64,000 nt of DNA from Candidatus Eiseniibacteriota bacterium (GCA_050733935.1 JBOHUC010000016.1:6088-70087); one strand, 5' to 3'. Numbered from the stretch's first letter, positions 5,417 through 62,407 are shown. Numbers and translations are program-made. Notes: generated by a model from the sequence alone, not told the origin.

Positions 5417-8400
5417 CTACTGCAGCACCATCACCTTCTGTGCGACGCGCTTCCCCTCGACGTCGAGCTGAATGAAGTAGATGCCGGCGCTCACGCGATG
5501 ACCCTGGTCGTCCGCTCCGTCCCACAGCACCTGGTGCCGATCGGGACCGGGAAGCGTTCCTTCCATGAGGCTTCGGACCCGGCGCCCCGCAAGGTCGAAC
5601 GCCGCCAACCGGACGGGCGCAGCCGTGGAAAGCTCGAATTCGATACGAACCGAGCCCGTCGTCGGATTCGGCCGCGGCGACAGGAGCGCGATCCGCGCCG
5701 GCCGGGCTTCGGGTTCCTCGACGTCCACGGCCGTCGGTCCGCAGACGGGCGTGCTTGGACACGACGCATCGAACGCCGTGCCGCGGAACAACTCGACCTG
5801 GAAGAGCCGGCCGCGCGGCTGGTCCATGGCGTCGAGCAGCACGATTCCGACCGGGTTCGATCCCACGAACGGTGCGGTCGGCGGATCGATGAGCGACTGG
5901 ATCGGCGTCGGCGGCTGGATGCGGAGCGGCTGGGCCATGCGAAGCTTCCCCACGAGAGGCGATGAGATCTCGAGGAAGACGTCGAAGAATCCGTTCGCAG
6001 GGAAGAACGGTCCCGCGCCGAGCTGCGTCAGCGCACCGAGCGTCGAGATCTCCGGCCGGAGCCGGACATCGACCGGCCCGACGGGCGACGCGTTCGAATG
6101 GAGCCACAACGCCAGCATCTCCGTGGGCACGGAGTCGAGACCGTTCGGCAGCTCGACGGCGGCGCTGCGCTCGACCCGGAACCGCCCGGGAAGCGGGGCG
6201 AGCGTGACGATCCCCGCCCCCAGGTCCGCGACCACGCGTCCCATCGCGCAATACGCATCCCGACCGGGTTCCGGCGCCGGATTCCACTCGAGCTCGCTCA
6301 TCGGAGTCTGGACCACCTGCAGAAGGGAGCCGACCGGCTGGCCGGTCTGCCGGTCGAGCAACGGCACCGGACCGAGGCTCTGCAGCACGTCGCCGAGCGG
6401 CGGGAATCCGTGGATCTGGCCTTCGATGCGCATGGGAAGCGGATTGAACAGGGTCCGTGAGATCGCGGGGAACTCGATCTCGAAGAACACGTCGAAGAAG
6501 CTGTCCGCCGGATAGACCCCGGGGTCCACGAGCGCCTCGTCGAACAGCGCTCCGCCTGCCGAGACCAGCGTCGGCGATTCACGAACGATGAACGGGCCGA
6601 GCGTGGGATGCGTTCCGCGAAAATCCATCGAGAGGATCTCGAGCGGTCCTTTCCACCGCCGCGACGCGGGATCCCAGAGCGTGGCATCGCGCGACCACTC
6701 GAACGTGCCCTGCGCGACCATCGACCCCATGGTGTCGATGAAGAGCTGCAGTCCGCTCGTCGCCGAGGCAATGGGAGCTTCGATCACGAGGCTCGCATCC
6801 CCGAGGCTTCCCACGACCACTCCCGCGGTGTTGTAGAGCGGAACCGGCGTGGGCGAACCCACATGAAGGTCGCCGAACGGCGGAATGGACTGGCCCGTCG
6901 CCGCGAGATGGAGCGGATCCCGGTTGTGGAGGGTCGCCCCGTCGACGTCGATCTCGACGAAGACGTCGAAAAAGCTGTCGATCTGAAGCGGGGCGTTTCC
7001 TGTCGGCTGGCTGACGAGCCCGATCGAGGGCCGCGTGGGACTCTGGCGAAAGACAATCGGGCCGCGGCATCCAACCCCCTTCGAGTCGAAGGCGAGGATC
7101 TCCGTGTCGATCTCGGCCCGATGATCCCACGTGAACACCGGCTCCGCCCCGCGGAGCTCGACGGACGCGCTGGCGTGGTAGGGCTGGGGCCCGGCGGGCT
7201 GGAAGATCGTGGTCTGAAAGAAAACCCGGTTGCGCGCGACCAGCGTGGGATACGCGACGTAGCCGTGCGACGAATTGCAGAGGGTGGCGACGCAGCCGTC
7301 CTCGTCGTCGGGATCGAGATCGGGCTGGCCGAAATGCGTGCCGCTCGCTCGCAGGACGGGTTTGCCGAGAACGGTGACGCAAGCCGCCTCGTTCAGGATC
7401 CCGTAGAGTGCGCTGCCCGTGCTGCCTCGAACCATGCTTCCTTCGCTCCCCGCGTCCACGCTTTCGTTTTCGTTCGCTTCGAACTTCGTGCTGTTCACTG
7501 CGCTCAGCGTCCCGGCGCTGCCGTCCTTCGTCTGCGTGTGGTTGAGAATGACGGGACGCTGGGGGAATCCTTCAATGATCACAGCCTCTCCACCGCTGGG
7601 CTGAATGAGATTGCGCTCGGTAAAGCCGCTCGCGTGCGAGTACCCGCTCACTTCGTTCGGGCTCAGGATGAAGACCGCGTAGTCCGAGTCGAGCGTCTCT
7701 TCATCCAGGCAGGGTTCGGGGCTGGTTCGGAGTCGATACTGGTTGCGCGGCGTCGGATGCTGAATGGCCCCCTCATGGGGACTCGCGAGCGAAGCCGGCA
7801 CGTTGTACTCGACGATCAGGTCGCTGGGCTTGGTCAGATCCACGACCCCGGGCTGACCCGTACATGGGATCTGGTCTCCGGACACGTTGTGGATACAGGT
7901 GAGGCAGCTCCCGTCGACCAGGATGCAGTCGCCCGGGAACAGCGCAACCGAGGAGCACGTGACGTACGTCGTGTCCGACGATACAGGGTTGATTTGCATC
8001 GCGATCACGCGCCCCGCTCTCGCGTCCACTCCGTCTTCCTGGTCGAATGCACACGCCCAGGAGATTCCTCCCGACGCGGGAGCGAGTCCGTAGTGGATGA
8101 AGTCGACCGAAATGCCTTCGCCGGAGCTCCCCGCTCGCGCCCACAACTGGATGGTGACGGAGCCCCCGTTCAGGAACAGGGAGAAGTATCCGAGCGCGGG
8201 AGTCACCTGGCGGCCCTCGATTCTGTAGTTGGTGCCGTCTCCCGCCTCGAATCGAACGTAATCGCGTAACCCGAGCTCGAACTGGTCGAAGTGCACGCGG
8301 ATCCAGGTCGAGTTCGAAGGAGCGTTGAGCTGCACTTCATGCATAAGGGCCGTCGTTTCACCGGCGTTTCCATACGGCCCGGACTGGTAGCCAACGGGCG

Positions 8401-8485
8401 CCTTCCCGAAGGGCAGTTGGACCGCGAGAGTCGGCGTCGCAAGCAAAGCGACGAGAGATAGAATGAGAACGGTTCGTTGAAGCAT
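5417..8485 (-). CDS. Large secreted multi-repeat protein with a T9SS-type/FlgD-Ig-like C-terminal sorting domain
   Basis: Signal peptide MLQRTVLILSLVALLATPTLA. AGGAGG SD 8 nt upstream. Three internal repeats share the SFFDVFVEIDV / SFFDVFFEIEFP / GFFDVFLEISSP motif. C-terminus GIYFIQLDVEGKRVAQKVMVLQ is typical of a Por-secretion CTD. Confidence 0.75.
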   Translation of the reverse strand: MLQRTVLILSLVALLATPTLAVQLPFGKAPVGYQSGPYGNAGETTALMHEVQLNAPSNSTWIRVHFDQFELGLRDYVRFEAGDGTNYRIEGRQVTPALGYFSLFLNGGSVTIQLWARAGSSGEGISVDFIHYGLAPASGGISWACAFDQEDGVDARAGRVIAMQINPVSSDTTYVTCSSVALFPGDCILVDGSCLTCIHNVSGDQIPCTGQPGVVDLTKPSDLIVEYNVPASLASPHEGAIQHPTPRNQYRLRTSPEPCLDEETLDSDYAVFILSPNEVSGYSHASGFTERNLIQPSGGEAVIIEGFPQRPVILNHTQTKDGSAGTLSAVNSTKFEANENESVDAGSEGSMVRGSTGSALYGILNEAACVTVLGKPVLRASGTHFGQPDLDPDDEDGCVATLCNSSHGYVAYPTLVARNRVFFQTTIFQPAGPQPYHASASVELRGAEPVFTWDHRAEIDTEILAFDSKGVGCRGPIVFRQSPTRPSIGLVSQPTGNAPLQIDSFFDVFVEIDVDGATLHNRDPLHLAATGQSIPPFGDLHVGSPTPVPLYNTAGVVVGSLGDASLVIEAPIASATSGLQLFIDTMGSMVAQGTFEWSRDATLWDPASRRWKGPLEILSMDFRGTHPTLGPFIVRESPTLVSAGGALFDEALVDPGVYPADSFFDVFFEIEFPAISRTLFNPLPMRIEGQIHGFPPLGDVLQSLGPVPLLDRQTGQPVGSLLQVVQTPMSELEWNPAPEPGRDAYCAMGRVVADLGAGIVTLAPLPGRFRVERSAAVELPNGLDSVPTEMLALWLHSNASPVGPVDVRLRPEISTLGALTQLGAGPFFPANGFFDVFLEISSPLVGKLRMAQPLRIQPPTPIQSLIDPPTAPFVGSNPVGIVLLDAMDQPRGRLFQVELFRGTAFDASCPSTPVCGPTAVDVEEPEARPARIALLSPRPNPTTGSVRIEFELSTAAPVRLAAFDLAGRRVRSLMEGTLPGPDRHQVLWDGADDQGHRVSAGIYFIQLDVEGKRVAQKVMVLQ

Positions 8486-11795: not shown

Positions 11796-12014
11796 CTACT
11801 CCTCGTCCTCGAGATCGTCCTCGTCGTCGTAATCGTCCTCGTCGAGATCGTCATCGTCGAATTCGTCGTCATCATCCTCGTCATCGTCATCCTCGAAGTC
11901 GATGTCCTCGTCATCCTCCTCGTCGAGGTCGTCGATGAATTCTTCGTCTTCGTCGGACTCACGCCCCGAGAAGATCAAGTCCTGGCCGTTTCCGGACACT
12001 GAGAGGAATTCCAT
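11796..12014 (-). CDS. Small, highly acidic (D/E-rich) protein
   Basis: MEFLSVSGNGQDLIFSGRESDEDEEFIDDLDEEDDEDIDFEDDDDEDDDDEFDDDDLDEDDYDDEDDLEDEE. Clean ORF on the same strand as the flanking genes. Homology unknown. Confidence 0.35.
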   Translation of the reverse strand: MEFLSVSGNGQDLIFSGRESDEDEEFIDDLDEEDDEDIDFEDDDDEDDDDEFDDDDLDEDDYDDEDDLEDEE

Positions 12015-12289
12015 GTCGCACCCTGCCTCTGGTGTGGCCCGGGACATGCCGGGCGCGTTCCCAACGCTACCACCGCGCCGAGAGGAGTCATGTCGAAAAG
12101 CTCCGCGGGTGTTCGGAGCGCGCGCGGCGCGCCGGAAATCGCGGCTTCCTGCGAAACCGGCGGCAGTATACCGACCCGACCCGGGGGGTCAACTTTTTTC
12201 ACCCCCCCGGCGCAACCCTCACGGAGCAAACGAAAACGCCGCTCGGGGCGCGGCTCCGGGCGGACGTTTGTCGGGGCTTCGGATGTGAG

Positions 12290-12367
12290 TGGCGGGGTTG
12301 ACGGGACTCGAACCCGCGACCTCCTGCGTGACAGGCAGGCGTTCTAACCAAACTGAACTACAACCCC
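12290..12367 (-). tRNA. tRNA-Asp (GTC)
   Basis: Minus-strand GGGGTTGTAGTTCAGTTTGGTTAGAAC GCCTGCCTGTCACGCAGG AGGTCGCGGGTTCGAGTCCCGTCAACCCCGCCA. Cloverleaf with a 7-bp acceptor stem, CTGTCAC anticodon loop, T-psi-C GGTTCGAGTCC, encoded CCA. Confidence 0.85.
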
Positions 12368-12509: not shown

Positions 12510-13280
12510 ATGCCGCCCGAGATCGAAGCGTACGATCCGCAGGAATTTTGGCAGGAGCGTCTGTCGGAAAACTTCGACCTGCGGGGCACGGGGCATCCCG
12601 GTCTTTCGGCGGCGTACAACGAGCGATGCTATCGCCTGCGCCGTGCCGTCCTCGACTCGATTCTCGTGAAGCACCGCGTTCCGGTGGCCGGGCATCGCGT
12701 TCTCGACGCGGGCTCCGGGAGCGGATTCTTCGTCCGGCACTTCCTCGAGCGCGGCGCCCGCGTGACGGGCGTCGATCTCACCGAAGTTTCCGTTCGGGAG
12801 CTTTCAAAGCGGTTTCCGGAAGCGCAATTCGAGCGTGGAGACCTGTCCACGTGGCGCGCGCGCGAGCCGTTCGACCTCGTGTCGTGCTTCGACGTGCTGT
12901 TCCACATCGTGGACGAAGCGGCGTGGGACAAAGCTCTCACGAACCTCGCGGATGCGGTGCGGCCGGGGGGCTACTTCGTGTTCACGGAGTATTTTCCGCG
13001 ACGGCGTCCCCGATCGATCGAGGGGCACAATATCGGACGGGACTGGGAGACCTACCGGACGGCACTTCTCGCGCGCGGGCTTGCGATCCTCGAGAACCGT
13101 CCGACCCATCACCTCATGAACAGCGATCTCGGCGTGTTTCGATTCCTGAATCGCGCGCCCGAGCTCCTCTACCGCATCGATCTCGGGCTCCTCACCGCCG
13201 GCCTCCTCGAGGATCGGGGAAGCAATCGCATCGTGCTCACGAGGAAGGCGGACCCGGGCGCGCCGATCCCGTCCCGCTGA
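12510..13280 (+). CDS. Class I SAM-dependent methyltransferase
   Basis: VLDAGSGSGFF motif I and downstream MTase motifs. Confidence 0.7.
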   Translation: MPPEIEAYDPQEFWQERLSENFDLRGTGHPGLSAAYNERCYRLRRAVLDSILVKHRVPVAGHRVLDAGSGSGFFVRHFLERGARVTGVDLTEVSVRELSKRFPEAQFERGDLSTWRAREPFDLVSCFDVLFHIVDEAAWDKALTNLADAVRPGGYFVFTEYFPRRRPRSIEGHNIGRDWETYRTALLARGLAILENRPTHHLMNSDLGVFRFLNRAPELLYRIDLGLLTAGLLEDRGSNRIVLTRKADPGAPIPSR

Positions 13281-13773
13281 CCCGCCGGAGCGCGGCGAGA
13301 CGACGGGCGAGAGGTTCGGGCAACGGCTCGCGCAGCAGGCGGTGGAGCGCGCTCGCATCCGCTCCGCGCGACTCGAGGTGCAGAAACAGGGGCTCCGAGC
13401 GATGCGTGCGCTCCATGAGTGCGTACGCGACGGCCCACGCCTCGAGACTTCCGAGCGGGATCCCTTCCCACGTGCCGCGCACGAACGTCGGAATGCGGGC
13501 CACGCGGCCGTCGTTCACGAGCGCAAAGCGCACGATGAGCTCGACCGTTCCCCCGTCGAAGACGAGCTTCGAATCGGAGTGACGACCGGACGAGCCGACG
13601 TAGACCGGGCGCAGCTCGTCGACCACCGGCAGGAGGCGATCGAGGGTCGCATCGGTCGTCAAGTCCCAGTCCCGTACGCGATCGACGAGCCCGTGCGCGG
13701 CGAGAAGTCCGCTTCCGCCGAGCGAGTGCACGATGCCTGCGTCCGAGAGCCGGCCGTGCACCTCGAGGAGCAT
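13237..13773 (-). CDS. Hypothetical protein, possibly nucleotidyltransferase-fold. Last gene of the MurNAc-recycling operon.
   Basis: MLLEVHGRLSDAGIVHSLGGSGLLAAHG... Alternative GTG start at 13803 overlaps the SpoIID stop (GTGA). The upstream part of the listed ORF is R-rich. Confidence 0.4.
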   Translation of the reverse strand: MLLEVHGRLSDAGIVHSLGGSGLLAAHGLVDRVRDWDLTTDATLDRLLPVVDELRPVYVGSSGRHSDSKLVFDGGTVELIVRFALVNDGRVARIPTFVRGTWEGIPLGSLEAWAVAYALMERTHRSEPLFLHLESRGADASALHRLLREPLPEPLARRLAALRRVSGTGSARPGPPSS

Positions 13774-13799
13774 CGTCTTCGGGGGAAGGGCAATCGTCG

Positions 13800-15116
13800 T
13801 CACAGGTGCACGATCTCCACGTCCGCGTAATAGAAATGAAGAATGTCCCCGAAGGCCCGTCCCGCCCGCGCCTGCGCGAGGGCGCCGACCTGGCACATGC
13901 CCGCACCGTGGCCATTGCCGCCGCCGCTCGCCACGACCTGGGTCACGCGGCCGCGCCCGTCCTTTCGCACCGCGAGCTTGAACAGGCTGCTCCGGAGAAT
14001 CGAGCCTCCGGCGGATTGCGGCCTTCTGAGGACCCAGCGGGTCTTGTCCGCCCACACGACCACGTCGCCCTTTTCCGTGTCGAACACGAGCTCGCGCACA
14101 CGTCCCGACGGGCTTCGCGAATTGACACGCACGTCGCGGAGCTCCTTCCATCCGCCCGGAGGCGGCGCGATCCCGCTCTGCTCGGGCCCGTAGCGATTCA
14201 GGTTCGAGAGGACCTCGGCTCCGGTCCACGTTTCCGTCCAGCGAAAGTGACGCGAGTCCTTGCACCACGCGTCGTGCACGTCGCGATCCTCGACCTGCCG
14301 GAGCCACGGGAACGGCGGATCGGGCCAGATGTCCTCGACGTTTGCCGTCGCGCCGCCGCAAGTCGAATAGTAGTTCGCGCGGATGTACGAGCCGTCGTGG
14401 AGCACGACCACGCCGCGTGTTTCCGCGACCGCCCGATCGGTGAACGGCGTTTCGCTCGCGATGCCGGCGTAGACCTGGTCCTCGACGGAATCGTAGAGAT
14501 CGAATCCTTCCTCGAAGCGCCGGCCGACGTACGAGAGCGTGTACGTGCGCGCGGCCACGGCCTGCGCCTTGCCGGCTTCGAGGGTGGCGGCGTCGAGCTT
14601 TCCGATCTCGTGCGGGAGAACTCCCCTCAAGTACGGCTCGACGGCGACACGGTTGGCGGCCGTGATGCGACCGCGCGGACTCACGAAGAGCTTGGCCCCC
14701 CCGCGGTAGCGCTTCCCGTTCACCGTCACCTCATCGGTCTCCGGTCCGCCGACGAACACGGTGTCGTCGGCCACGACGGGCTCGTTCAGGCGCGCTCCCG
14801 AGGCGCCCTCGAGCGCGAGCAGGATCCGACCGCCGCCGATCCAGGCCACGAGCGAAGAGCGTGCGGGGACGTTGTCGACCTCGGGCGCTCCGCGGACAGC
14901 CTCGCCGCTCGTGGGGCCGACCGCGACCCGGACGCGCTCCGCGTCGATCACGATGCCGACATCGAGCCATTCGGTGCGGCCGAGACGCGTCGCCACCCCG
15001 TCCGCATGCACCACGGACGCGTCGAACGCCGCGGTTGCAATGCCGTAGGCACACGCGACGATGAGGGCTCTCGCGACGTGGCGGCATCGACCGAATCCGA
15101 ACCCTCTCCCCTTCAC
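13800..15116 (-). CDS. SpoIID/LytB-domain protein (lytic transglycosylase / amidase enhancer)
   Basis: YYSTCGGATANVEDIW SpoIID signature and a signal peptide. GTG start overlaps the anmK stop (GTGA). Confidence 0.8.
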   Translation of the reverse strand: MKGRGFGFGRCRHVARALIVACAYGIATAAFDASVVHADGVATRLGRTEWLDVGIVIDAERVRVAVGPTSGEAVRGAPEVDNVPARSSLVAWIGGGRILLALEGASGARLNEPVVADDTVFVGGPETDEVTVNGKRYRGGAKLFVSPRGRITAANRVAVEPYLRGVLPHEIGKLDAATLEAGKAQAVAARTYTLSYVGRRFEEGFDLYDSVEDQVYAGIASETPFTDRAVAETRGVVVLHDGSYIRANYYSTCGGATANVEDIWPDPPFPWLRQVEDRDVHDAWCKDSRHFRWTETWTGAEVLSNLNRYGPEQSGIAPPPGGWKELRDVRVNSRSPSGRVRELVFDTEKGDVVVWADKTRWVLRRPQSAGGSILRSSLFKLAVRKDGRGRVTQVVASGGGNGHGAGMCQVGALAQARAGRAFGDILHFYYADVEIVHL

Positions 15117-16435
15117 AGGCGTTCCTTTCGGTCGAGCGTGATCGAGCCCAGAACGAGCGGGCGCGCGGCACCCGTGACCCCGGGCAAGTTGCCCGGGCGT
15201 CCGTTGAGCGATTCGAACGCGAGTACGGCGAACGCGACCGCCTCCTTCGCGTCCACGGGCAGGCCGAGCTCGTCGGTCGTATGAAGCTCGATTGGATCGA
15301 GCGCCGCGGCGAGAGACGCCATGAGAACGGGATTGTGCGTTCCGCCGCCGCTTGCGTAGACGGCATCGAGCGGGAATCGCAGTGCCACGAATTCCTCGAT
15401 CGCGTTCGCGACCGCAGAAGCCGAAAGCATGGCGGCGGTCACGAGCAGGTCGGCCTCTGAAAGGCCGCGCGCCTTCCCCGCCGCGAACCAGCGTTCGAGA
15501 TACGCATCGCCGAACCGTTCCCTCCCCGTCGAGCGCGGCGGCGGTTGATCGAAGAACGGATCCGCGAGCGCCTCGGCGAGGAGCTCCTCGTCCGGGCGGC
15601 CTCCCACCGCGCGGCGGCCGTCCTCATCATAGGACACGCGGCCCCCCGTCGCGCGCCGCACGATCCCGTCGAGCAGCATGTTCCCCGGTCCCGTGTCGAA
15701 CGCGAGGACTTCGTCCACCTGCGCGCGGGCGGGCATGGCGGTCAGGTTCGCGATCCCGCCGAGATTGAGAAGCCCGCGCGCGACGTGCGCGCTCCGGAAC
15801 AGGAGCCAGTCCACGTACGGGACGAGCGGTGCACCTTCGCCGCCCGCCGCGATGTCGGCCGAGCGAAAATCGTGGAGCACGCGAATCCCCGTCCGCTCGG
15901 CCAGCACCGAGGCCGATCCGATCTGCCAGGTGAGCCCGCCCCCACCGGCCGCGGCGGCGTCCGCATCGCGCGGTCCGCGATGGAAGATCGTCTGACCGTG
16001 AAGCCCGATCGCCGCGACATCGCGCGGATCGGCTCCCGCATCGCCGAGGAGCTCGAGCACCGCGGCCGCATACGTCTCGCCGAGCGCGGCGTCGAGTGCC
16101 GTGAACTCGGATGCCGGGAACGCGTCTCCGCGCGCGCACGCGAGGATCCGCGCCGTGAGCAACGGATCGAGCGGGAGGCTTCGGTGCGCACGGAGCTTCC
16201 ACGTGAGTCCGGGTGGCTCACCCGAGAGCGCGACGAGGGCCGCTTCGATTCCATCGACCGACGTGCCGGTCATGAGGCCGACGACGAGAGTCGACTTGCG
16301 CGCTCGCTCCTGCACGCGCGGCTTCCCGCGCTCCTTCTCGTGCTGCTTCGCGCGCCCCTTCCCGCGGTCCTTTCCCCGCTCCGTCGAGCGCCCCTTCCCC
16401 CGCCCTGCGGCGGGCCTGGCCGGCCTTCGCGCCAT
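15113..16435 (-). CDS. anmK: Anhydro-N-acetylmuramic acid kinase with a K/R-rich N-terminal extension
   Basis: GLMTGTSVDGIEAA...DTGPGN...ASGGG motifs. The ATG at 16433-16435 overlaps the permease stop (ATGA), which supports the extended start MARRPARPAAGRGKGRSTERGKDRGKGRAKQHEKERGKPR. Confidence 0.85.
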   Translation of the reverse strand: MARRPARPAAGRGKGRSTERGKDRGKGRAKQHEKERGKPRVQERARKSTLVVGLMTGTSVDGIEAALVALSGEPPGLTWKLRAHRSLPLDPLLTARILACARGDAFPASEFTALDAALGETYAAAVLELLGDAGADPRDVAAIGLHGQTIFHRGPRDADAAAAGGGGLTWQIGSASVLAERTGIRVLHDFRSADIAAGGEGAPLVPYVDWLLFRSAHVARGLLNLGGIANLTAMPARAQVDEVLAFDTGPGNMLLDGIVRRATGGRVSYDEDGRRAVGGRPDEELLAEALADPFFDQPPPRSTGRERFGDAYLERWFAAGKARGLSEADLLVTAAMLSASAVANAIEEFVALRFPLDAVYASGGGTHNPVLMASLAAALDPIELHTTDELGLPVDAKEAVAFAVLAFESLNGRPGNLPGVTGAARPLVLGSITLDRKERL

Positions 16436-17268
16436 CAACCCTTCTCCGCTCCGGCTGTCATTCCCTCGATGATCTGGCGCTGGAAGAAGAGGAACGCGGC
16501 GATCATCGGGAGAGCCGAGATCGTGGAACCGGCCATGAGGAGCCCCCAGTCGACCGCATGCTCTCCCTGCGCGAACAGCGCAAGCCCGACCGGGAGCGTC
16601 CGCAGGCGATCGGAGTTCGTGAAGATGAGCGGGAAGAGAAACGAGTTCCAGTTGAGCAGGAACGAGTTGATCGCGACGACCGCGAGCGCCGGCTGAAGAA
16701 GCGGCAGAACGATCGTCGAGAAGATCCGAAGCTCGCTCGCCCCATCGACCCGCGCGGAGTCCTCGAGCCCGGTCGGAAGCCCGAGCACGTACTGGCGCAC
16801 GAGGAAGATCGAGAACGCGTCCACGAAGAACGGCAGGATGACCGCGCCGTACGTGTTGAGGAGCCCAAGGCGCGCGAGCACGAGGTAGAGCGGAATCATG
16901 AGCACCTGGCGCGGCACCATGAGGGTCGCGATCACGCCCCAGGTGAGCGCGCGGTTCCCCGGGAAGCGCTTGCGCGCGAGCGCGTACCCCACCATGGCTC
17001 CCGTCAGCACGTTCCCGCCGACGACGAAGAGAGCGACGAGCGACGAGTTCAAGAGATAGCGCGGGAACGATCCCGCCTCCCACAGCGCGCGGTAGTGCAT
17101 CAGGCTGAAGCGCGCGCGAGAGAGCGCGTCGACCGAGAGATCGCCGCCCGCCCCCGGCTGAACGGACAGGAAGAGCATCCACAGAAACGGCACGAGCATC
17201 GTGACGAGAAGCGGCAGGAGAAGCCATGCCCGGCGGCTCACGACTTGGGCCCCTCGAGCTTGAGCCAC
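16435..17268 (-). CDS. Carbohydrate ABC transporter permease (MalG/UgpE-like)
   Basis: Six TM segments and the EAA-type motif region VDGASELRIFSTIVLPL. Exact start uncertain: 31-nt overlap with the upstream permease. Confidence 0.8.
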   Translation of the reverse strand: MAQARGAQVVSRRAWLLLPLLVTMLVPFLWMLFLSVQPGAGGDLSVDALSRARFSLMHYRALWEAGSFPRYLLNSSLVALFVVGGNVLTGAMVGYALARKRFPGNRALTWGVIATLMVPRQVLMIPLYLVLARLGLLNTYGAVILPFFVDAFSIFLVRQYVLGLPTGLEDSARVDGASELRIFSTIVLPLLQPALAVVAINSFLLNWNSFLFPLIFTNSDRLRTLPVGLALFAQGEHAVDWGLLMAGSTISALPMIAAFLFFQRQIIEGMTAGAEKG

Positions 17269-18128
17269 TTCACCTGCGCAAACGCGAGCGCGAGCGTGAG
17301 GAAGAAGAGGAGATACGCGATCGACGACGCATACCCGAGACGGAAGCGGTAGAACGCCTGTTCGTACAGGTAGAAGACCGAGGTGAGCGTCGAGTTCAAC
17401 GGCCCGCCCCGGGTCATGACGAAGATCTCGGTGAAGATCTGAAGGCTCCTAACGCTGTTTACGATCAGGACGAACAGGAACGTCGCGCGAAGCATCGGCA
17501 TCGTGATGTGGACGAAGCGCTGCCAGCGGGTCGCGCCGTCGAGATGCGCCGATTCGTAGAGCTCCTCCGGGATCGACTTGAGTCCCGCGAGAAAGATCAC
17601 CATGTAGTAGCCGGAGGCGGCCCACACGTCCATCGCCATGATCGCCGGCAGGGCTGTCTCAGGATCGAGGAGCCACCGCGGCGGCGTGCCGCCAAGGGCC
17701 GTGACGAGCGCCGAGAGCGGACCTTCCGGCGCGTAGAGCCCCTTCCACACGAGGCTGATGACGACCACCGAGACGACCGTGGGCAGGAAGAATCCCGCGC
17801 GGAAGAAAGCCCGGCCCGGAAACGCGCGATTGAGCGCGAGCGCGAGCCCGAGGGCGATCGCGGTCGTGAACGGGATCGTGCCGAAGACGAAGAGGAGCGT
17901 GTTCCCGAGCGACTTCCAGAACAAGGGATCGCGCAGCGCTTCCGCGTAGTTGCCGAGCCCGAGGAAGCGTGCAGCCTGCGGCCGAAGGGGAGAGTAGTCG
18001 AAGAACGAAAGAACGAACGAAAACCCGAACGGATAGAGCCCGAAAACGGCGAGCGAGAGGATCCACGGGGAGAGGAGAATCCACGTGGTCGGCTCGAACC
18101 GCTTCCGCCGGCTCTTCGGTTTCGACAC
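17238..18128 (-). CDS. Carbohydrate ABC transporter permease (MalF/UgpA-like)
   Basis: TM topology and EAA loop AHLDGATRWQRFVHITMP. Confidence 0.8.
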   Translation of the reverse strand: MSKPKSRRKRFEPTTWILLSPWILSLAVFGLYPFGFSFVLSFFDYSPLRPQAARFLGLGNYAEALRDPLFWKSLGNTLLFVFGTIPFTTAIALGLALALNRAFPGRAFFRAGFFLPTVVSVVVISLVWKGLYAPEGPLSALVTALGGTPPRWLLDPETALPAIMAMDVWAASGYYMVIFLAGLKSIPEELYESAHLDGATRWQRFVHITMPMLRATFLFVLIVNSVRSLQIFTEIFVMTRGGPLNSTLTSVFYLYEQAFYRFRLGYASSIAYLLFFLTLALAFAQVKWLKLEGPKS

Positions 18129-18143
18129 GCGGCCCCGGACCCT

Positions 18144-19397
18144 CTACCGCGCCGCGCTCGCCGCCGTTCGGGCGAGGATTTCGTTCATGCGACCGTTCGC
18201 GGCGCGCACGGCCGCCGCGGGCGTCTTCTTGCCGTACAGCGCCTGCTCGATCTCGTCCTCGATCGCCGCCTCCATGTCGAGCCAGTCAGGATGGTTCGGC
18301 GTCGTGCGCGAGAGGAGGAGCTGCTCGACCATCATGGCCTCGTTCGGACGCTCTCGATAATACGGGTCGTCAACGGCACCGACGGCGGCGGGCTGGACCG
18401 CCTTGTTCGCCTTCGCGAGCGCGAGGGCCGCCTCCTTCGAAGCGAGAAAGCGGGCGAGGCGGAAGGCGCCGTTCGGGTTCTTCGAAGCGCTGAACGAGAC
18501 CAGGATCTCCCCGCCCGCGAACGACGCGTGGGTGCCGTGGTCGGCGGCGGGCTTGGGAATGAGCGCCACGCCGTACGCGAGGTCCGGGGCCTGCGTCGGA
18601 ATCTTCCGGAAGAGCCACGCGCCCGAGATCTGAGCGCCGAGCTTGCCCTGGAGGAACGCTTCGTCGAGCTGATCCTGCCGGTCGGTGCGCCCGTGCTTCG
18701 CAAGCGCCAGGTAGAGCTCGAGCGCTTCGACGTTGGCCGGCGAATCGAACGCGGCACTCTTCCCGTCGGCGGAGAGGAGCTCGCCGCCGTTCGACCACGC
18801 GTACGGCATGTACTTCTTGAACAGGATGTAGCGCTCGCCGGCATTGACCCCGTATCCGGCCACGCCGTTCCCGAGCGCCTGCACGCGACGCGTGGCTTCG
18901 AGGATCTCGGGCCACGTCGAGGGCGCGTGATTCGTGTCGAGGCCCGCGTGCGCGAACAGCGTCTTGTTCCAGAAGAGAGCTCGCGTTCCAACCATCCAGG
19001 GCATCCCGTACGTGCGACCGTTCGAACGCGCGAGCTCCCACAGCGTGAACTGCGATTCGATGGTCCCCGTCGAGTCGGTCCAGTCTGCGAGCGCACCCTG
19101 CGTGGCGAAGCGTGGAAACCAGGTCGAACCGAGCTCGCACAGATCGGGAACCGTGCCGCCCGCGACGGCGGCCGTGATCTTCTCGAGGCCGCTCTGCCAG
19201 GTGAGCTGTTCCATCTGGACCGTGACGTCCGGATTCTGTTTCTGGAATTCGTCGAGAAGAGGTTGAACCTGCTCGGCCGGGAAGAACTGCCAGAACACGA
19301 CGACCTGTTTGCCAGCCGCTCCGCCGCCGCCGCAGCCCCCGAGGCCCGCGACGGCGAGCGCGAGAACGCCGGCTGTCTTCCATGAGAGTCGCTTCAT
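18144..19397 (-). CDS. Sugar ABC transporter substrate-binding lipoprotein (family 1 SBP)
   Basis: Lipobox LAVAGLGGC, SBP_bac_1-like sequence, 417 aa. Confidence 0.8.
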   Translation of the reverse strand: MKRLSWKTAGVLALAVAGLGGCGGGGAAGKQVVVFWQFFPAEQVQPLLDEFQKQNPDVTVQMEQLTWQSGLEKITAAVAGGTVPDLCELGSTWFPRFATQGALADWTDSTGTIESQFTLWELARSNGRTYGMPWMVGTRALFWNKTLFAHAGLDTNHAPSTWPEILEATRRVQALGNGVAGYGVNAGERYILFKKYMPYAWSNGGELLSADGKSAAFDSPANVEALELYLALAKHGRTDRQDQLDEAFLQGKLGAQISGAWLFRKIPTQAPDLAYGVALIPKPAADHGTHASFAGGEILVSFSASKNPNGAFRLARFLASKEAALALAKANKAVQPAAVGAVDDPYYRERPNEAMMVEQLLLSRTTPNHPDWLDMEAAIEDEIEQALYGKKTPAAAVRAANGRMNEILARTAASAAR

Positions 19398-19422
19398 GTC
19401 CGGGATCCCTCCGCTGAGCGCG

Positions 19423-20361
19423 TTACTTCGTTTCGATCGCTTGCCGGACGAATCCGCCGGCGCGTTCGAGTCGCCTCGTCGCCTCCTCCTTCGAGACTTC
19501 CGCGAGCGTCATGACGATCGCGGTCTTGACACTTCCTCCGGCCTCGTTCAAGCGATCACACGCCTTGTCGTAGTCGAGCCCGGTCACCGTCATGAGCGTT
19601 CGCCGTCCGCGCTCGACGAGTTTCTCGCTCGTCGCCAGGAGATCCACCATCATGTTCTCGTAGAGTTTCCCCAGACGGACCATGGTCGCGGTCGAGAGCA
19701 TGTTGAGCACGAGCTTCTGCGCCGTGCCCGCTTTCATCCGGGTCGAGCCCATGATCGCCTCGGGTCCGACGACCGGACAGATCGCGACGTCGACCGGGAT
19801 CGTGACCTCGGACCGCGGCGTGCACGTGAGGAGTGCGGTCTTCGCGCCGAGCTTCTTCGCCTGCTCGAGCGCGGCCACGACGAAAGGTGTCCGACGCGAG
19901 GCCGCGATGCCGACCACGAAGTCGTGCCGGTCCACGCGCGCGCGGCGGATCGAGTCCGCTCCGTCGTCAGACCGGTCCTCGGCGCCTTCGACGGCCTGGA
20001 TGAGGGCGCCGTAGCCGCCCGCGATGATGCCCTGAATCCACTCCGGAGGAGTGCCGAACGTGGGCGGACATTCGGCGGCGTCGAGCACGCCCAGGCGTCC
20101 GCTCGTACCGGCCCCCACGTAGAGCACCCGGCCACCGGCCTTCAGGGCCTCGAACGCGAGGTCCACAGCGCGGGCGACGTGCGGAATCTCGCCGCGCACG
20201 ACGTCCGCGACCGTCCGATCCTCGTTGTTGAGAAGCTCGAGCACCTCGACCGTGGACCGGCGATCGAGATCCATCGTGCGCGGGTTGCGCTGCTCGGTCG
20301 CGAGGTCCTTGATCTCGTCGAAGACGGCGCGGTTCGGCGCGCGCGGGTCCGGGGCGCTCAT
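19423..20361 (-). CDS. murQ: N-acetylmuramic acid 6-phosphate etherase
   Basis: SIS domain GAGTSGRLG and C-terminal MurQ-type region, 312 aa. Confidence 0.85.
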   Translation of the reverse strand: MSAPDPRAPNRAVFDEIKDLATEQRNPRTMDLDRRSTVEVLELLNNEDRTVADVVRGEIPHVARAVDLAFEALKAGGRVLYVGAGTSGRLGVLDAAECPPTFGTPPEWIQGIIAGGYGALIQAVEGAEDRSDDGADSIRRARVDRHDFVVGIAASRRTPFVVAALEQAKKLGAKTALLTCTPRSEVTIPVDVAICPVVGPEAIMGSTRMKAGTAQKLVLNMLSTATMVRLGKLYENMMVDLLATSEKLVERGRRTLMTVTGLDYDKACDRLNEAGGSVKTAIVMTLAEVSKEEATRRLERAGGFVRQAIETK

Positions 20362-20451
20362 GCGCGCACCTTAGCGACGCGCGGCACCGCGGGCAAGGCC
20401 CGCGGCAACGCCAGGTGCGATTCCGTCCGGCGTTTCCGGTACTCTCCCGGC

Positions 20452-21387
20452 ATGCCGGAGCTCCCGGAAGTCGAAACCATCCGTCGCCACCTCGAGCGCC
20501 ACGTCGTGGGCCGAACCATCGCCTCGGTCTGGACGTCGGGCCTCGCGCTGCGCCGCCCGGTCCCGCGCACGTTCGCTGCCGCCCTGGCGGGGCGGTCGAT
20601 CGCGGGCGTCGGCCGACACGGGAAGTTCCTGATCCTCGCCCTCGACGACGGCGCGCGCCTCGTCGCTCACCTCGGGATGACGGGGAAGTTCCTCCTGCGA
20701 TCGCCCGAGATCGCCACCGATTCGAAGCCCGCTCACACGCACGCCGAGCTTCGTTTCGCGGACGGGGCGTCCCTCCTGTTCGTGGATCCGCGGCGATTCG
20801 GCCTCCTCGACTTCAGGCCGGTCGGGTCGCAGGACAACGGCCTCGGTGCGCCCGGGGGCGGCGTGGATCCGGTCGCCGAGCGCCTGGACGGGGAGCGACT
20901 CCGGGCCCTGTTCCGGCGCTGTCGCGGGCCGATCAAGCACGTGCTGCTCGATCAGCGTCGCATCGCGGGAATCGGGAACATCTACGCATGCGAGATCCTG
21001 TTCCGTGCCGCGATTGCTCCCAGGCGGCTCGTTCACACGCTCAAGCCCGACGAGCGCGAGCGGCTCGCCGGAGAGATCCACGACGTGTTGGGGCGAGCGA
21101 TCGAAAACCGGGGGACGACGTTCTCGGACTTTCGCGACCTCGACGACCGCCCCGGGGACTACGCGGTCGCTCTCCAGGTCTACGATCGCGAGGGTGAGGC
21201 GTGCCTCCGCTGCGGGACCACGATCCGGCGGATCGTGCAGACCGGGCGGTCGACGTTCTGGTGCCCGGGGTGCCAGAAGCGGGAAGTGCGGAAGGTTGCA
21301 GGGAACTCCGCCGGGCTCAACGGGCGGAACGGTTCGGCGCCGCCACGCGCGACGAGTCGGCGGCAACGGAATCGGCGAGCACCTTAA
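20452..21387 (+). CDS. mutM: Formamidopyrimidine-DNA glycosylase
   Basis: N-terminal MPELPEVE catalytic Pro2/Glu3, H2TH, C-terminal zinc finger CLRCG...CPGCQ. Basic 35-aa C-terminal tail. Confidence 0.85.
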   Translation: MPELPEVETIRRHLERHVVGRTIASVWTSGLALRRPVPRTFAAALAGRSIAGVGRHGKFLILALDDGARLVAHLGMTGKFLLRSPEIATDSKPAHTHAELRFADGASLLFVDPRRFGLLDFRPVGSQDNGLGAPGGGVDPVAERLDGERLRALFRRCRGPIKHVLLDQRRIAGIGNIYACEILFRAAIAPRRLVHTLKPDERERLAGEIHDVLGRAIENRGTTFSDFRDLDDRPGDYAVALQVYDREGEACLRCGTTIRRIVQTGRSTFWCPGCQKREVRKVAGNSAGLNGRNGSAPPRATSRRQRNRRAP

Positions 21388-25059: not shown

Positions 25060-25671
25060 TCAGTTCGTGGATGCCGCCGCGAGCCCGTACACGTCGTCGT
25101 GCAGCGCAGGTTCGCCCTCGTCGTCATAGCCGTTGAGCTCATAGACGATCTCGACCGGAGTGCCGATCGTGACGCGCTCGAAGAGGTCCTCGGCGTCGGA
25201 ACGCGACATCCGGATGCAGCCGTGCGACCGCGCGCGACCGATCGAGCCGGGCTCGTTGGTCGCGTGGATCCCGTATCCGTCCTCGGAGATTCGCATCCAC
25301 CGGTGACCGAGCGGATTCTGCGGACCCGGAGGGACCGGCTTTCTTCCTTTCGGGGCCCAGGTCGGGTCCTTGGTCTTCTGGAGAATCCGAAACTGGCCCG
25401 TCGGGGTCGGGCTGTCGGGCCGGCCGACCGCGACCGGATACGCGCGCACGAGCTCGTTCCCGCGCACGAGCCGGAGCCGCCGCGCGGGCACGTTGATGAC
25501 AACCCGGACCGTGTCCTCCCAGGGCAACACCGCGCCGATCCCCTGGGGAAGGTCGAGCTGGTCGGGGGCCGCTCCCGATGCGATCCTCGCGATCCCCGCC
25601 ATCCCGGCGATTGCGATGCAAAGGATCGAGGCCCCGGATGCGAAGTTGAACGAATGGTCGAATCGGCACAT
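25060..25671 (-). CDS. L,D-transpeptidase (YkuD domain)
   Basis: SHGCIRM catalytic motif and signal/TM N-terminus. Confidence 0.75.
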   Translation of the reverse strand: MCRFDHSFNFASGASILCIAIAGMAGIARIASGAAPDQLDLPQGIGAVLPWEDTVRVVINVPARRLRLVRGNELVRAYPVAVGRPDSPTPTGQFRILQKTKDPTWAPKGRKPVPPGPQNPLGHRWMRISEDGYGIHATNEPGSIGRARSHGCIRMSRSDAEDLFERVTIGTPVEIVYELNGYDDEGEPALHDDVYGLAAASTN

Positions 25672-62309: not shown

Positions 62310-62407
62310 GGCGAAGCAGGATACCACGCCCGACTTGAAGGGGTACGGGCGTGGCCGGTACACTCCTTGTGCCCTGCCGATCGTTGCCGTCATCCGCGGA
62401 GGATCCG

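What the first reader, a model, noticed from the sequence alone, without database searches (positions are those of the whole stretch)
13237..20361. Anhydro-MurNAc recycling operon built around an ABC importer and a SpoIID-like lytic enzyme
Seven co-directional, mostly translationally coupled genes: murQ, a sugar SBP lipoprotein, two MalFG-type permeases, anmK, a SpoIID/LytB-domain protein and a small NTase-like protein. AnmK and MurQ are the committed steps of anhydro-MurNAc catabolism. SpoIID-family proteins are lytic transglycosylases that generate 1,6-anhydro-MurNAc ends. In the canonical E. coli pathway, uptake is by the AmpG permease (anhydromuropeptides) and by the PTS MurP (MurNAc), not by an ABC system. 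Here an SBP-dependent ABC transporter is embedded between murQ and anmK. This predicts an ABC-type uptake route for anhMurNAc or anhydromuropeptides, physically coupled to the enzyme that produces them.
Basis: partly seen in the sequence, partly recalled or inferred. Interest (0 to 1): 0.6.

Follow-up and report, generated by a model that had tools for sequence, protein, structure and literature searches.

The report
Sugar ABC importer for cell-wall recycling
An uncultured soil bacterium (Eisenbacteria) keeps a sugar-type ABC importer in one operon with a wall-cutting enzyme and the two enzymes that digest the wall sugar anhydro-MurNAc. This points to a way of taking wall fragments back into the cell that is absent from the published transporter lists I could search.

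Summary
Seven co-directional genes on the minus strand (13237-20361) are murQ, a lipoprotein-type sugar-binding protein (SBP), two MalFG-type permeases, anmK, an exported SpoIID/LytB-domain protein and a small nucleotidyltransferase-fold protein. Gaps between them are 25, 15, -4, -1, -4 and -4 nt.

The order murQ-SBP-permease-permease-anmK-spoIID recurs in Eisenbacteria, Latescibacterota and Krumholzibacteriia genomes, down to about 44% SBP identity. murQ is adjacent in 63 of 64 informative loci, anmK in 46 of 52, and spoIID in 40 of 42. A cytoplasmic GH3 NagZ-like gene follows spoIID in at least 11 relatives.

More distant members of the same SBP family sit either in chitobiose-type operons or in differently arranged wall-recycling clusters.

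My reading is that the likeliest cargo is the peptide-free disaccharide GlcNAc-1,6-anhydroMurNAc. It would be cut from denuded glycan by the SpoIID-like enzyme, imported, split by NagZ, and then processed by AnmK and MurQ. Stem-peptide-bearing muropeptides are unlikely.

The small nucleotidyltransferase is a lineage-specific passenger. No ATPase gene is linked. Ligand binding, enzyme activity and the absence of ampG/murP are untested.

I found no description of a CUT1-type importer for wall sugars in the literature I could search. Verdict: a new variant of a known kind, of moderate to high interest.

The parts
19423..20361 (-). murQ, MurNAc-6-phosphate etherase (312 aa). First gene of the operon.
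   Evidence: TIGR00274 scores 381.7 bits (cut-off 302) and NF003915 scores 409 bits. Adjacent to the SBP in 63 of 64 informative loci.
18144..19397 (-). Substrate-binding protein of a CUT1-type sugar ABC importer (417 aa). Predicted lipoprotein.
   Evidence: SBP_bac_1 and SBP_bac_8. No equivalog passes its cut-off. AF2 model pLDDT 91.7. Nearest solved structures are oligosaccharide binders at no more than 27% identity. Cys22 is nearly invariant.
17238..18128 (-). Permease 1 (MalF/UgpA-like, 296 aa).
   Evidence: BPD_transp_1. Best NCBIfam matches are GlcT, MalF and UgpA, all below cut-off.
16435..17241 (-). Permease 2 (MalG/UgpE-like, 268 aa). Its start overlaps the perm1 stop by 4 nt.
   Evidence: BPD_transp_1. 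Best matches are UgpE, GlcU and MalG. Gene call and junction.
15113..16435 (-). anmK, anhydro-MurNAc kinase (440 aa). Includes a lineage-specific 45-aa Lys/Arg-rich N-terminal extension.
   Evidence: NF007148 scores 428.5 bits (cut-off 387) and PF03702 has E 1e-100. The ATG sits in a TGATG overlap with the perm2 stop, with GGAGAAGG upstream.
13800..15116 (-). Exported SpoIID/LytB-domain protein (438 aa). Putative glycan-strand cleaving enzyme.
   Evidence: TIGR02669 scores 173.8 bits (cut-off 83.3). The sporulation equivalog TIGR02870 is not met (102 bits against 234.75). E170 aligns with the catalytic E101 of C. difficile SpoIID and is invariant in 46 of 46 operon-linked orthologs. An N-terminal hydrophobic or lipoprotein-type signal is present in 44 of 46.
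13237..13803 (-). Small nucleotidyltransferase-fold protein (188 aa). Translationally coupled here, but not part of the conserved unit.
   Evidence: Profile match to TM1012, E 5e-6. AF2 pLDDT 94.5; Foldseek top hits are TM1012, ANT(2'')-Ia and LnuA. S21 and D35-W36-D37 are invariant. Homologs lie in unrelated neighbourhoods. Found after spoIID only in L003-L005.
20362..20452 (.). Divergent intergenic region of about 90 bp between murQ and fpg. Presumed promoter region.
   Evidence: Gene calls. A weakly conserved CTTGCCCG ... TAAGGT/CAAAGT pattern occurs in the closest relatives only. No consensus sigma-70 site was found. Function was not shown.

Best explanation
This is a self-contained 'cut, import, digest' operon for the sugar backbone of peptidoglycan. 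The proposed steps are:

1. The exported SpoIID-like enzyme cleaves glycan strands that amidases have already stripped of peptides. It releases GlcNAc-1,6-anhydroMurNAc. The fold and catalytic residue are shown; the activity is inferred.
2. The lipoprotein SBP captures this disaccharide and hands it to the MalFG-type permease pair. The pair would be energised by a shared MalK/MsiK-type ATPase encoded elsewhere. This step is inferred.
3. In the cytoplasm a NagZ-type GH3 enzyme removes GlcNAc. The gene is in the operon in relatives but has not been located in this genome.
4. AnmK converts anhMurNAc to MurNAc-6-phosphate. The family assignment is shown.
5. MurQ removes the lactyl ether, giving GlcNAc-6-phosphate and D-lactate. 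The family assignment is shown.

The system would do the job that AmpG does for the disaccharide in E. coli, but with an ATP-driven, binding-protein-dependent sugar importer. The terminal nucleotidyltransferase gene is a passenger.

Sub-probabilities: about 0.75 that the cargo is some MurNAc-containing wall sugar, and about 0.5 that it is specifically GlcNAc-anhMurNAc.
For: **Gene identities.** The family assignments and tight coupling are shown.

**Conserved order.** Of 78 murQ-clade loci, murQ is adjacent in 63 of 64 informative cases, anmK follows perm2 in 46 of 52, and spoIID follows anmK in 40 of 42. SBP identity falls to about 44% across these loci, which include Latescibacterota and Krumholzibacteriia records. 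An independent metagenome contig shows the order murQ-SBP-PP-anmK-spoIID-GH3.

**NagZ.** A GH3 gene follows spoIID in at least 11 loci: 12 genome loci carry a GH3 match, the downstream position was tabulated for 11 of them, and the contig adds one more. The three tested score 187-206 bits on the beta-N-acetylhexosaminidase model NF003740, just under its cut-off of 207. They lack an N-terminal signal. A cytoplasmic NagZ implies that a GlcNAc-capped sugar is imported.

**SpoIID.** E170 is equivalent to the catalytic E101 of C. difficile SpoIID and E88 of the B. subtilis enzyme, and it is invariant. An export signal is present in 44 of 46 orthologs. Published work shows that SpoIID acts on denuded glycan and releases GlcNAc-anhMurNAc disaccharides (PMC6221140).

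**SBP family.** The murQ-linked SBPs group together. The nearest outgroup, from records labelled Omnitrophota, lies in nagA-nagB-SBP-PP-GH94-ROK operons. A Thermotogota branch lies in ROK-SBP-PP-GH84 next to nagK and nagA. Both are chitobiose-type, and chitobiose is the de-lactyl analogue of GlcNAc-MurNAc. Two further branches sit with PG genes in different orders: GH3-SBP-PP-Peptidase_S13 with murQ and anmK nearby, and SBP-PP-GNAT-NamZ.

**Structure.** The structural neighbours are di- and oligosaccharide CUT1 binders.
Against: - No binding, transport or enzyme assay exists. Everything about the ligand is inferred from context.
- No NagZ, amidase or ABC ATPase gene lies in the 64-kb window. 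No ATPase lies within 10 kb in any of 92 loci.
- The canonical Eisenbacteria operon lacks nagZ, so import of monosaccharide anhMurNAc after periplasmic trimming remains possible.
- The Waddlia SpoIID homolog yields mostly non-anhydro products from denuded glycan (PMC6635528). AnmK would not be needed for such products.
- One KK-type relative has no PG genes nearby (L087).
- Six Eisenbacteria loci carry murQ and the SBP without anmK or spoIID.
- The loci come from MAGs and several carry discordant taxon labels. Phyletic breadth is therefore approximate.
- Much of the conservation lies within related lineages and could partly reflect inherited synteny.
Confidence: 0.6

Rival explanations
1. The importer takes up monosaccharide 1,6-anhydroMurNAc (or MurNAc). 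Periplasmic enzymes would first trim the disaccharide, and the SBP would be a monosaccharide binder.
For: The operon in this window and in most Eisenbacteria has no nagZ. AnmK and MurQ alone suffice for anhMurNAc. In the L090/L091 branch the GH3 enzyme has a hydrophobic N-terminus and may be exported.
Against: The structural and sequence neighbours of the SBP bind di- and oligosaccharides. Other branches of the family sit with cytoplasmic disaccharide-cleaving enzymes, GH94 and GH84. The operon-linked GH3 proteins in relatives lack signal peptides.
Confidence: 0.2
2. The system imports peptide-bearing anhydromuropeptides. It would be a true AmpG or YejBEF-YepA analogue.
For: AmpG-less bacteria are known to use an ABC system for muropeptides (PMC9790009).
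Against: YepA/MppA-type systems use peptide-type binding proteins and permeases. This one is SBP_bac_1 with MalFG-type permeases. No ampD, ldcA or mpl gene is linked in any locus examined. Characterised SpoIID enzymes need peptide-free glycan.
Confidence: 0.07
3. The transporter carries chitobiose or another GlcNAc oligosaccharide. On this view murQ, anmK and spoIID are merely co-regulated amino-sugar genes and are not steps on the same substrate.
For: Related SBP branches (33-43% identity) are in chitobiose-type operons. Ligand-cleft positions shared with maltose-binding protein are conserved in both groups.
Against: The murQ-linked operons contain no nagA, nagB, nagK, GH94, GH84 or GH20 gene. 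The transporter genes are translationally coupled to anmK, embedded between murQ and anmK, and this holds in 46 of 52 loci. Two lysines, K194 and K195, are invariant in the murQ clade (77 of 77) and absent from the chitobiose-type branches.
Confidence: 0.1
4. The SpoIID-like protein is a housekeeping division or morphogenesis enzyme, or a LytB-like amidase enhancer. It would share the transcript without feeding the importer.
For: SpoIID homologs act at the septum in non-sporulating bacteria (PMC6635528). The family model is 'SpoIID/LytB domain', which also covers a non-catalytic role. Two anmK-bearing loci and the six-genome variant operon lack it.
Against: It follows anmK in 40 of 42 informative loci. 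In this window the spoIID start overlaps the anmK stop by 4 nt. The catalytic Glu is invariant and the protein is exported. Its expected product is exactly the substrate of the AnmK branch of the pathway.
Confidence: 0.2

Closest known systems
AmpG-NagZ-AnmK-MurQ recycling pathway of E. coli
   Same: The cytoplasmic chemistry is the same: AnmK then MurQ, with NagZ in relatives. The inferred disaccharide, GlcNAc-anhMurNAc, is also the core unit that AmpG recognises.
   Different: Uptake here is by a binding-protein-dependent CUT1 ABC system rather than an MFS permease. The transporter, a glycan-cleaving enzyme and the catabolic enzymes share one operon. No peptide-recycling genes are attached.
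YejBEF-YepA of Agrobacterium tumefaciens (PMC9790009) and Opp-MppA of E. coli
   Same: Both are ABC importers that bring peptidoglycan turnover products into cells, and YejBEF-YepA does so in place of AmpG.
   Different: Those are peptide/oligopeptide-type ABC systems with peptide-type binding proteins, and they carry stem peptides or whole muropeptides. The system here is sugar-type (SBP_bac_1 with MalFG-like permeases), with no sequence relationship implied.
murQ-murP operons (E. coli, B. subtilis, S. aureus; PMC5061867)
   Same: murQ is clustered with a dedicated MurNAc transporter. In B. subtilis it is also clustered with exported wall-degrading enzymes (amiE, nagZ, namZ).
   Different: The transporter there is a PTS that phosphorylates MurNAc during uptake. 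Here an ABC importer is paired with AnmK, which implies the anhydro form. No MurR regulator is linked.
Chitobiose/GlcNAc CUT1 ABC importers (NgcEFG/DasABC type, and the Omnitrophota and Thermotogota relatives found here)
   Same: They share the transporter class and the unlinked ATPase. A shared MsiK-type ATPase is well known for such systems (from my own knowledge). A beta-1,4-linked GlcNAc disaccharide is the likely common scaffold, and the relatives found here share 33-43% SBP identity.
   Different: The NgcE equivalog is not met (37 bits against a cut-off of 399.65). The gene partners are murQ, anmK and spoIID instead of nagA, nagB, GH94, GH84 and ROK. K194 and K195 are invariant in the murQ clade and absent from the chitobiose-type relatives.
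SpoIID of B. subtilis and C. difficile (engulfment lytic transglycosylase), and the SpoIID homolog of Waddlia
   Same: The SpoIID domain and the catalytic glutamate are shared. The protein is exported. The expected substrate is peptide-free glycan.
   Different: It is not the sporulation equivalog (TIGR02870 below cut-off). It has an extra N-terminal region of about 150 aa. Most orthologs are predicted lipoproteins. It is encoded inside a sugar-recycling operon, with no SpoIIP partner nearby.
AmpG1-Slt coupling in Acinetobacter baumannii (PMC13507758)
   Same: The idea is the same: a glycan-cleaving enzyme is functionally coupled to the importer of its product.
   Different: There the coupling is a protein-protein contact between an MFS permease domain and Slt. 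Here it is genetic (operon) coupling between an ABC system and a SpoIID-type enzyme. Physical contact is untested.

Membership tests
MurQ (MurNAc-6-P etherase) | Full-length match to the equivalog model above its curated cut-off; SIS fold | tested here: met
   TIGR00274 scores 381.7 bits against a cut-off of 302. SIS and GKRP_SIS_N domains are present.
MurQ (MurNAc-6-P etherase) | Etherase activity on MurNAc-6-phosphate | not testable with these tools
AnmK (anhydro-MurNAc kinase) | Full-length match to an AnmK equivalog above its cut-off | tested here: met
   NF007148 scores 428.5 bits against a cut-off of 387. PF03702 has E 1e-100 over 365 of 367 profile positions.
CUT1-type carbohydrate ABC importer | Cluster-D/MalE-like SBP plus two MalF/MalG-like permeases | tested here: met
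   SBP_bac_1 and two BPD_transp_1 proteins, with best matches to MalF/UgpA/GlcT and MalG/UgpE/GlcU. The SBP fold matches oligosaccharide SBPs with TM 0.75-0.83.
CUT1-type carbohydrate ABC importer | A MalK/MsiK-type ATPase subunit | tested here: inconclusive
   No Walker A plus LSGGQ ORF was found in the window or in any of 92 loci of up to 21 kb. It must be encoded elsewhere, as is common for this class. The rest of the genome could not be searched.
Characterised sugar SBP equivalogs (MalE, UgpB, NgcE, GanS) | Score above the curated equivalog cut-off | tested here: not met
   Scores against cut-offs are MalE 45 vs 291, UgpB 54 vs 411, NgcE 37 vs 399.65 and GanS 58 vs 700. The best PDB identity is no more than 27%.
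SpoIID/LytB domain family | Domain model above its cut-off | tested here: met
   TIGR02669 scores 173.8 bits against a cut-off of 83.3. PF08486 has E 6.5e-19.
SpoIID lytic transglycosylase | Catalytic glutamate (B. subtilis E88, C. difficile E101) | tested here: met
   E170 aligns with E101 of PDB 5TXU and is invariant in 46 of 46 operon-linked orthologs. Residue roles are taken from PMC6221140 and PMC6635528.
SpoIID lytic transglycosylase | Releases 1,6-anhydroMurNAc products from peptide-free glycan | not testable with these tools
   Published homologs differ on this. The B. subtilis and C. difficile enzymes give anhydro products. The Waddlia enzyme gives mainly non-anhydro products on denuded glycan.
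Sporulation protein SpoIID (equivalog) | TIGR02870 above its cut-off; sporulation context with SpoIIP/SpoIIM | tested here: not met
   TIGR02870 scores 102.2 bits against a cut-off of 234.75. There are no sporulation genes nearby.
Peptide-type PG importers (YejBEF-YepA, Opp-MppA) | Oligopeptide-family binding protein and permeases | tested here: not met
   The only matches are to sugar-type families.
Minimal nucleotidyltransferase fold (TM1012, ANT(2'')-Ia, LnuA-like) for the 188-aa ORF | NTase fold with the G-S ... D-x-D motif | tested here: met
   Profile against TM1012 gives E 5e-6. Foldseek against 2EWR gives E 5e-7 and TM 0.59-0.66. S21, D35 and D37 are invariant in 28 homologs. The substrate is unknown.

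The most novel reading that the evidence does not exclude
This SBP clade defines a previously unrecognised class of peptidoglycan-recycling importer. It would be a CUT1 sugar ABC system specialised for the peptide-free disaccharide GlcNAc-anhMurNAc, having diverged from chitobiose importers. It would replace AmpG in Eisenbacteria, Latescibacterota and Krumholzibacteriia. Its dedicated exported SpoIID-type enzyme would make the unit a portable 'harvest and import' module for denuded glycan, from the cell's own septum or from dead neighbours. Related branches (with GH3 and PBP4, or with NamZ) would extend the same principle to other lineages that lack AmpG and MurP.
Probability: 0.45. Interest if true: 0.7.

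Novelty: new variant of a known kind. Interest (0 to 1): 0.58.

Why it matters
How peptidoglycan sugars get back into cells is settled only for a few model bacteria: AmpG, MurP/NagE, Opp-MppA and, since 2022, YejBEF-YepA. For organisms that have MurQ but no MurP, recent papers still call the MurNAc transporter missing or unknown. Examples are Streptomyces (PMC5061867) and mycobacteria (PMC13041923).

A sugar-type ABC importer embedded between murQ and anmK gives a concrete, testable candidate class. It comes with a natural experimental handle: one soluble binding protein and a short list of candidate ligands.

The operon also links a SpoIID-type enzyme of a non-sporulating bacterium to a metabolic role. 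It suggests how abundant, uncultured soil and sediment phyla reuse or scavenge cell-wall carbon and nitrogen.

The relation to chitobiose importers offers a simple case of specificity evolving from GlcNAc-GlcNAc to GlcNAc-MurNAc.

Tried and rejected
1. **K194/K195 as a marker for the MurNAc lactyl carboxylate.** The two lysines are invariant in the murQ clade (77 of 77). They are replaced by Q plus L, E, Q or K in the chitobiose-type branches. They lie in a 4-residue insertion just after the residues aligned to MBP E153 and Y155. The marker is not clean: the PG-linked L090/L091 branch lacks KK, and a KK-bearing relative (L087) has no PG genes nearby. I keep it only as a mutagenesis lead.
2. 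**The small nucleotidyltransferase as part of the pathway.** Rejected. Its homologs sit beside 3HCDH, P5CR, GNAT and YjbQ genes in other Eisenbacteria. PADLOC gave no match.
3. **A linked ABC ATPase.** None found.
4. **nagZ, nagA-like amidohydrolase or AKR homologs in the window.** None found.
5. **Regulatory signals.**
   - No sigma-70-like site lies upstream of murQ, and terminator-like hairpins occur at chance level.
   - There is no Rfam element other than one tRNA.
   - The upstream alignment shows only a weak motif, and only in the closest relatives.
6. **The amidohydrolase in the variant operon as NagA.** Rejected. It scores 26 bits on nagA but 422 bits on a Xaa-Pro dipeptidase model, which is still below that model's cut-off.
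7. **Literature searches for a described CUT1 importer of MurNAc or anhMurNAc.** These found none. The library lacks most subscription-journal papers, so this is not proof of absence.
8. **Testing for ampG or murP in the genome.** Not possible.

Full report
**What is in the window.** The window has high G+C (64-71%). It comes from a Candidatus Eisenbacteria (Eiseniibacteriota) genome. The closest relatives of its proteins, and an identical public contig, are from MAGs with that label.

On the minus strand between 20361 and 13237 lie seven genes:
- **murQ**: TIGR00274, 381.7 bits, cut-off 302.
- **SBP**: a family-1 solute-binding protein with a lipoprotein-like N-terminus.
- **Two permeases**: MalF/MalG-like.
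- **anmK**: NF007148, 428.5 bits, cut-off 387.
- **SpoIID/LytB-domain protein**: TIGR02669, 173.8 bits, cut-off 83.3.
- **A 188-aa ORF**: no family match.

An independent gene call on the identical contig gives the same set. The junctions are +25, +15, -4, -1, -4 and -4 nt. anmK starts at an ATG that overlaps the perm2 stop (TGATG), behind a GGAGAAGG motif.

The flanking genes are a divergent fpg and a convergent methyltransferase. The small protein's profile matches TM1012 (E 5e-6). Its confident model (pLDDT 94.5) is closest to TM1012, ANT(2'')-Ia and LnuA.

**Is the linkage conserved?** I scanned one genome per species with a profile of the SBP. This returned 80 loci, which I mapped with the window's proteins.

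Two loci, from records labelled Omnitrophota, form an outgroup. In the other 78:
- murQ lies just upstream of the SBP in 63 of 64 loci with enough sequence.
- anmK follows perm2 in 46 of 52.
- The SpoIID-like gene follows anmK in 40 of 42.

This holds down to about 44% SBP identity. It includes records labelled Latescibacterota and Krumholzibacteriia, plus a few with discordant labels that are probably binning errors. A metagenome contig from a further branch (44-46% SBP identity) has murQ-SBP-perm-perm-anmK-spoIID-GH3.

The 188-aa gene follows spoIID only in the three closest genomes. Elsewhere in Eisenbacteria its homologs sit among unrelated genes. It is a real gene but a passenger.

**What the extra genes in relatives say.** Clustering all flanking ORFs showed a GH3 gene right after spoIID in at least 11 loci. 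Twelve genome loci carry a GH3 match, the position after spoIID was tabulated for 11 of them, and the contig adds one more. Pfam assigns these to Glyco_hydro_3. The three I tested score 187-206 bits on the beta-N-acetylhexosaminidase (NagZ) equivalog, just under its cut-off of 207. They have no N-terminal signal.

A cytoplasmic NagZ makes sense only if a GlcNAc-capped saccharide is imported. The window itself has no GH3, no NagA-like amidohydrolase and no ABC ATPase. None of the 92 loci I held has an ATPase within reach. Unlinked, shared ATPases are common for this transporter class (my own knowledge of MsiK-type systems), but here that is an assumption.

**The SpoIID-like protein.**
- It is not the sporulation equivalog (TIGR02870: 102 bits against 234.75).
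- It aligns with the solved SpoIID structures. Counting along that alignment, E170 corresponds to the catalytic E101 of C. difficile SpoIID.
- That glutamate is invariant in all 46 operon-linked orthologs.
- 44 of 46 have an N-terminal hydrophobic segment, mostly followed by a Cys as in lipoproteins. The enzyme is therefore exported.

Published work shows that SpoIID needs glycan already stripped of peptides and then releases GlcNAc-anhydroMurNAc disaccharides (PMC6221140). A SpoIID homolog of the non-sporulating Waddlia acts at the septum. It behaves as a lytic transglycosylase on sacculi but mostly as a muramidase on denuded glycan (PMC6635528). The product type of the present enzyme therefore cannot be taken for granted.

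**The binding protein.**
- No curated equivalog is met: MalE, UgpB, NgcE and GanS are all far below their cut-offs.
- The AlphaFold model is confident (pLDDT 91.7).
- Its nearest solved structures all bind di- or oligosaccharides, including cello-, sophoro-, malto- and cyclic oligosaccharides. Identity is at most 27%.
- Against 1.84 billion cluster representatives, only 216 reach E 1e-30, and identity falls quickly from 55% to about 40% and then 30%. The subfamily is therefore small and distinct.

In a neighbour-joining tree the murQ-linked proteins group together. The outgroup is encoded in nagA-nagB-SBP-perm-perm-GH94-ROK operons, which is a chitobiose-type layout.

**The wider SBP family.** Searching from that outgroup and reading neighbourhoods gave the following:
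- A Thermotogota branch has ROK-SBP-perm-perm-GH84 next to nagK-like, deaminase-like and nagA genes.
- One branch has GH3-SBP-perm-perm-Peptidase_S13. Nearby are GntR with a murQ homolog (46.5% identical to the window's MurQ) and a beta-lactamase-family gene followed by anmK.
- One relative sits with a GNAT and the exo-muramidase family NamZ.
- One relative has no informative neighbours.

The six subgroups are 35-47% identical to each other. The family as a whole therefore seems to handle beta-1,4-linked GlcNAc disaccharides. Several branches are recruited to peptidoglycan sugars in independent gene orders, which is stronger evidence than inherited synteny alone.

**Most likely mechanism.**
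1. The exported SpoIID-like enzyme cuts denuded glycan. The amidase that strips the peptides is not in the operon.
2. The lipoprotein SBP binds the released GlcNAc-anhMurNAc.
3. The MalFG-type permeases import it, using an unlinked ATPase.
4. NagZ removes GlcNAc.
5. AnmK makes MurNAc-6-P.
6. MurQ yields GlcNAc-6-P and D-lactate.

The family assignments, coupling, conservation, catalytic residue and export signals are shown. The ligand, the enzyme's product, the ATPase and the NagZ step in this genome are inferred.

I put about 0.75 on 'a MurNAc-containing wall sugar is the cargo' and about 0.5 on the specific disaccharide.

The rivals are:
- Monosaccharide anhMurNAc as cargo, about 0.2.
- Chitobiose-type cargo with only regulatory linkage, about 0.1.
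- Peptide-bearing muropeptides, about 0.07.
- Separately, that the SpoIID-like enzyme does not feed the importer, about 0.2.

**Comparison with what is known.** The cytoplasmic steps are those of the E. coli pathway. Reviews and primary papers from 2016 to 2026 list AmpG, Opp-MppA, YejBEF-YepA, MurP, NagE and Dpp as uptake routes. They state that the transporter is missing or unknown in Streptomyces and mycobacteria.

My searches found no sugar-type (CUT1) ABC importer described for MurNAc or anhMurNAc. The searchable library is incomplete, so this is absence of evidence only.

The coupling of a glycan-cleaving enzyme to an importer has a recent parallel in A. baumannii, where Slt binds AmpG1. 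There the coupling is physical; here it is genetic. I file the finding as a new variant of a known kind: a known pathway and a known transporter class in a new combination with a new inferred specificity.

**Leads that went nowhere.**
- K194 and K195 are invariant in the murQ clade and absent from the chitobiose-type branches. They sit in an insertion next to residues aligned with MBP ligand contacts. However, one PG-linked branch lacks them and one KK-bearing relative has no PG context. This is a mutagenesis lead, not evidence.
- Promoter, terminator, Rfam and upstream-motif scans gave nothing usable.
- The amidohydrolase in a six-genome variant operon is not NagA.
- Absence of ampG and murP could not be tested.

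**Verdict.** The finding is real and biologically coherent, and a specialist in cell-wall recycling would find it interesting. All ligand-level claims still rest on genomic context. Interest 0.58.

Noticed in passing
window 16301-16435 (minus strand): AnmK carries a 45-aa Lys/Arg-rich N-terminal extension (MARRPARPAAGRGKGRSTERGKDRGKGRAKQHEKERGKPRVQERARK). In the close orthologs L003-L005 only about 40 nt separates perm2 from the start of the AnmK match, so they appear to lack the extension. Its role is unknown.
   Followed up: partly
L037, L041, L045, L048, L051, L059 (e.g. L051 2128-8482): Six Eisenbacteria genomes carry a variant operon: murQ, an amidohydrolase, the SBP, an aldo/keto reductase, then two permeases, with no anmK or spoIID. 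The amidohydrolase is Xaa-Pro dipeptidase-like (422 bits, below the cut-off of 500). Their SBPs group as one subclade in the tree. The substrate may differ.
   Followed up: partly
L039, L042-L046 and others, directly upstream of murQ (e.g. L043 4720-8889): A large gingipain-like Peptidase_C25 protein with a FlgD_ig-type C-terminal domain lies on the same strand just upstream of murQ. An ORF cluster spanning 25 loci is represented here; three representatives were confirmed by Pfam. The loci are mainly Latescibacterota- and Krumholzibacteriia-type.
   Followed up: partly
L079 2845-5103; proteins P0241, P0242, P0249: In Omnitrophota relatives the SBP and first permease appear fused into one protein of about 700-750 aa. 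Several representatives of 715-750 aa also appear in the exhaustive search.
   Followed up: no
L090 7406-19209; L091 8421-14106: In another lineage the same SBP family sits in GH3-SBP-perm-perm-Peptidase_S13 (PBP4-like). In L090, GntR with murQ, and a beta-lactamase-family gene followed by anmK, lie within 9 kb. L091 shows the same core, but its contig ends before that flank. This is an independently arranged wall-recycling cluster.
   Followed up: partly
L092 882-6154: An SBP relative is followed by two permeases, a double-GNAT protein and a NamZ-family exo-muramidase. This hints at import of a MurNAc-capped sugar in that lineage.
   Followed up: no
window 13237-13803 (minus strand); L083, L085: The small TM1012/ANT(2'')-like nucleotidyltransferase belongs to a family of more than 200 proteins with no Pfam model. 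In the two other Eisenbacteria neighbourhoods examined it sits beside 3-hydroxyacyl-CoA dehydrogenase, a GNAT and YjbQ (P5C reductase in one of them). Its substrate is unknown.
   Followed up: partly
window 13237-13280: The convergent SAM-methyltransferase gene (12510-13280, plus strand) overlaps the 3' end of the small ORF by 44 nt.
   Followed up: no
window 12290-12367 (minus strand) and 11796-12047 (minus strand): A tRNA-Asp (GTC) is the only RNA gene found in the window. Next to it is a short ORF encoding an almost purely Asp/Glu tail, which was called as a 72-aa gene on the public contig.
   Followed up: no
window 25060-25671 (minus strand); 58207-59133 (minus strand): Other genes related to the cell wall are a YkuD-type L,D-transpeptidase and a beta-lactamase/PBP-family fragment. 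Neither is linked to the operon.
   Followed up: no
window 5417-8485 (minus strand); 60696-62480 (minus strand): Two large proteins end in a FlgD_ig-type domain, the same C-terminal domain seen on the C25 peptidases in related loci. It may be a secretion or sorting tag in this group.
   Followed up: no
window 20362-20452: Upstream of murQ, the closest relatives share CTTGCCCG followed about 17 nt later by TAAGGT, CAAAGT or CACATT, only 6-7 nt before the start codon. This may be a promoter giving a near-leaderless transcript. It is not conserved in more distant loci.
   Followed up: partly
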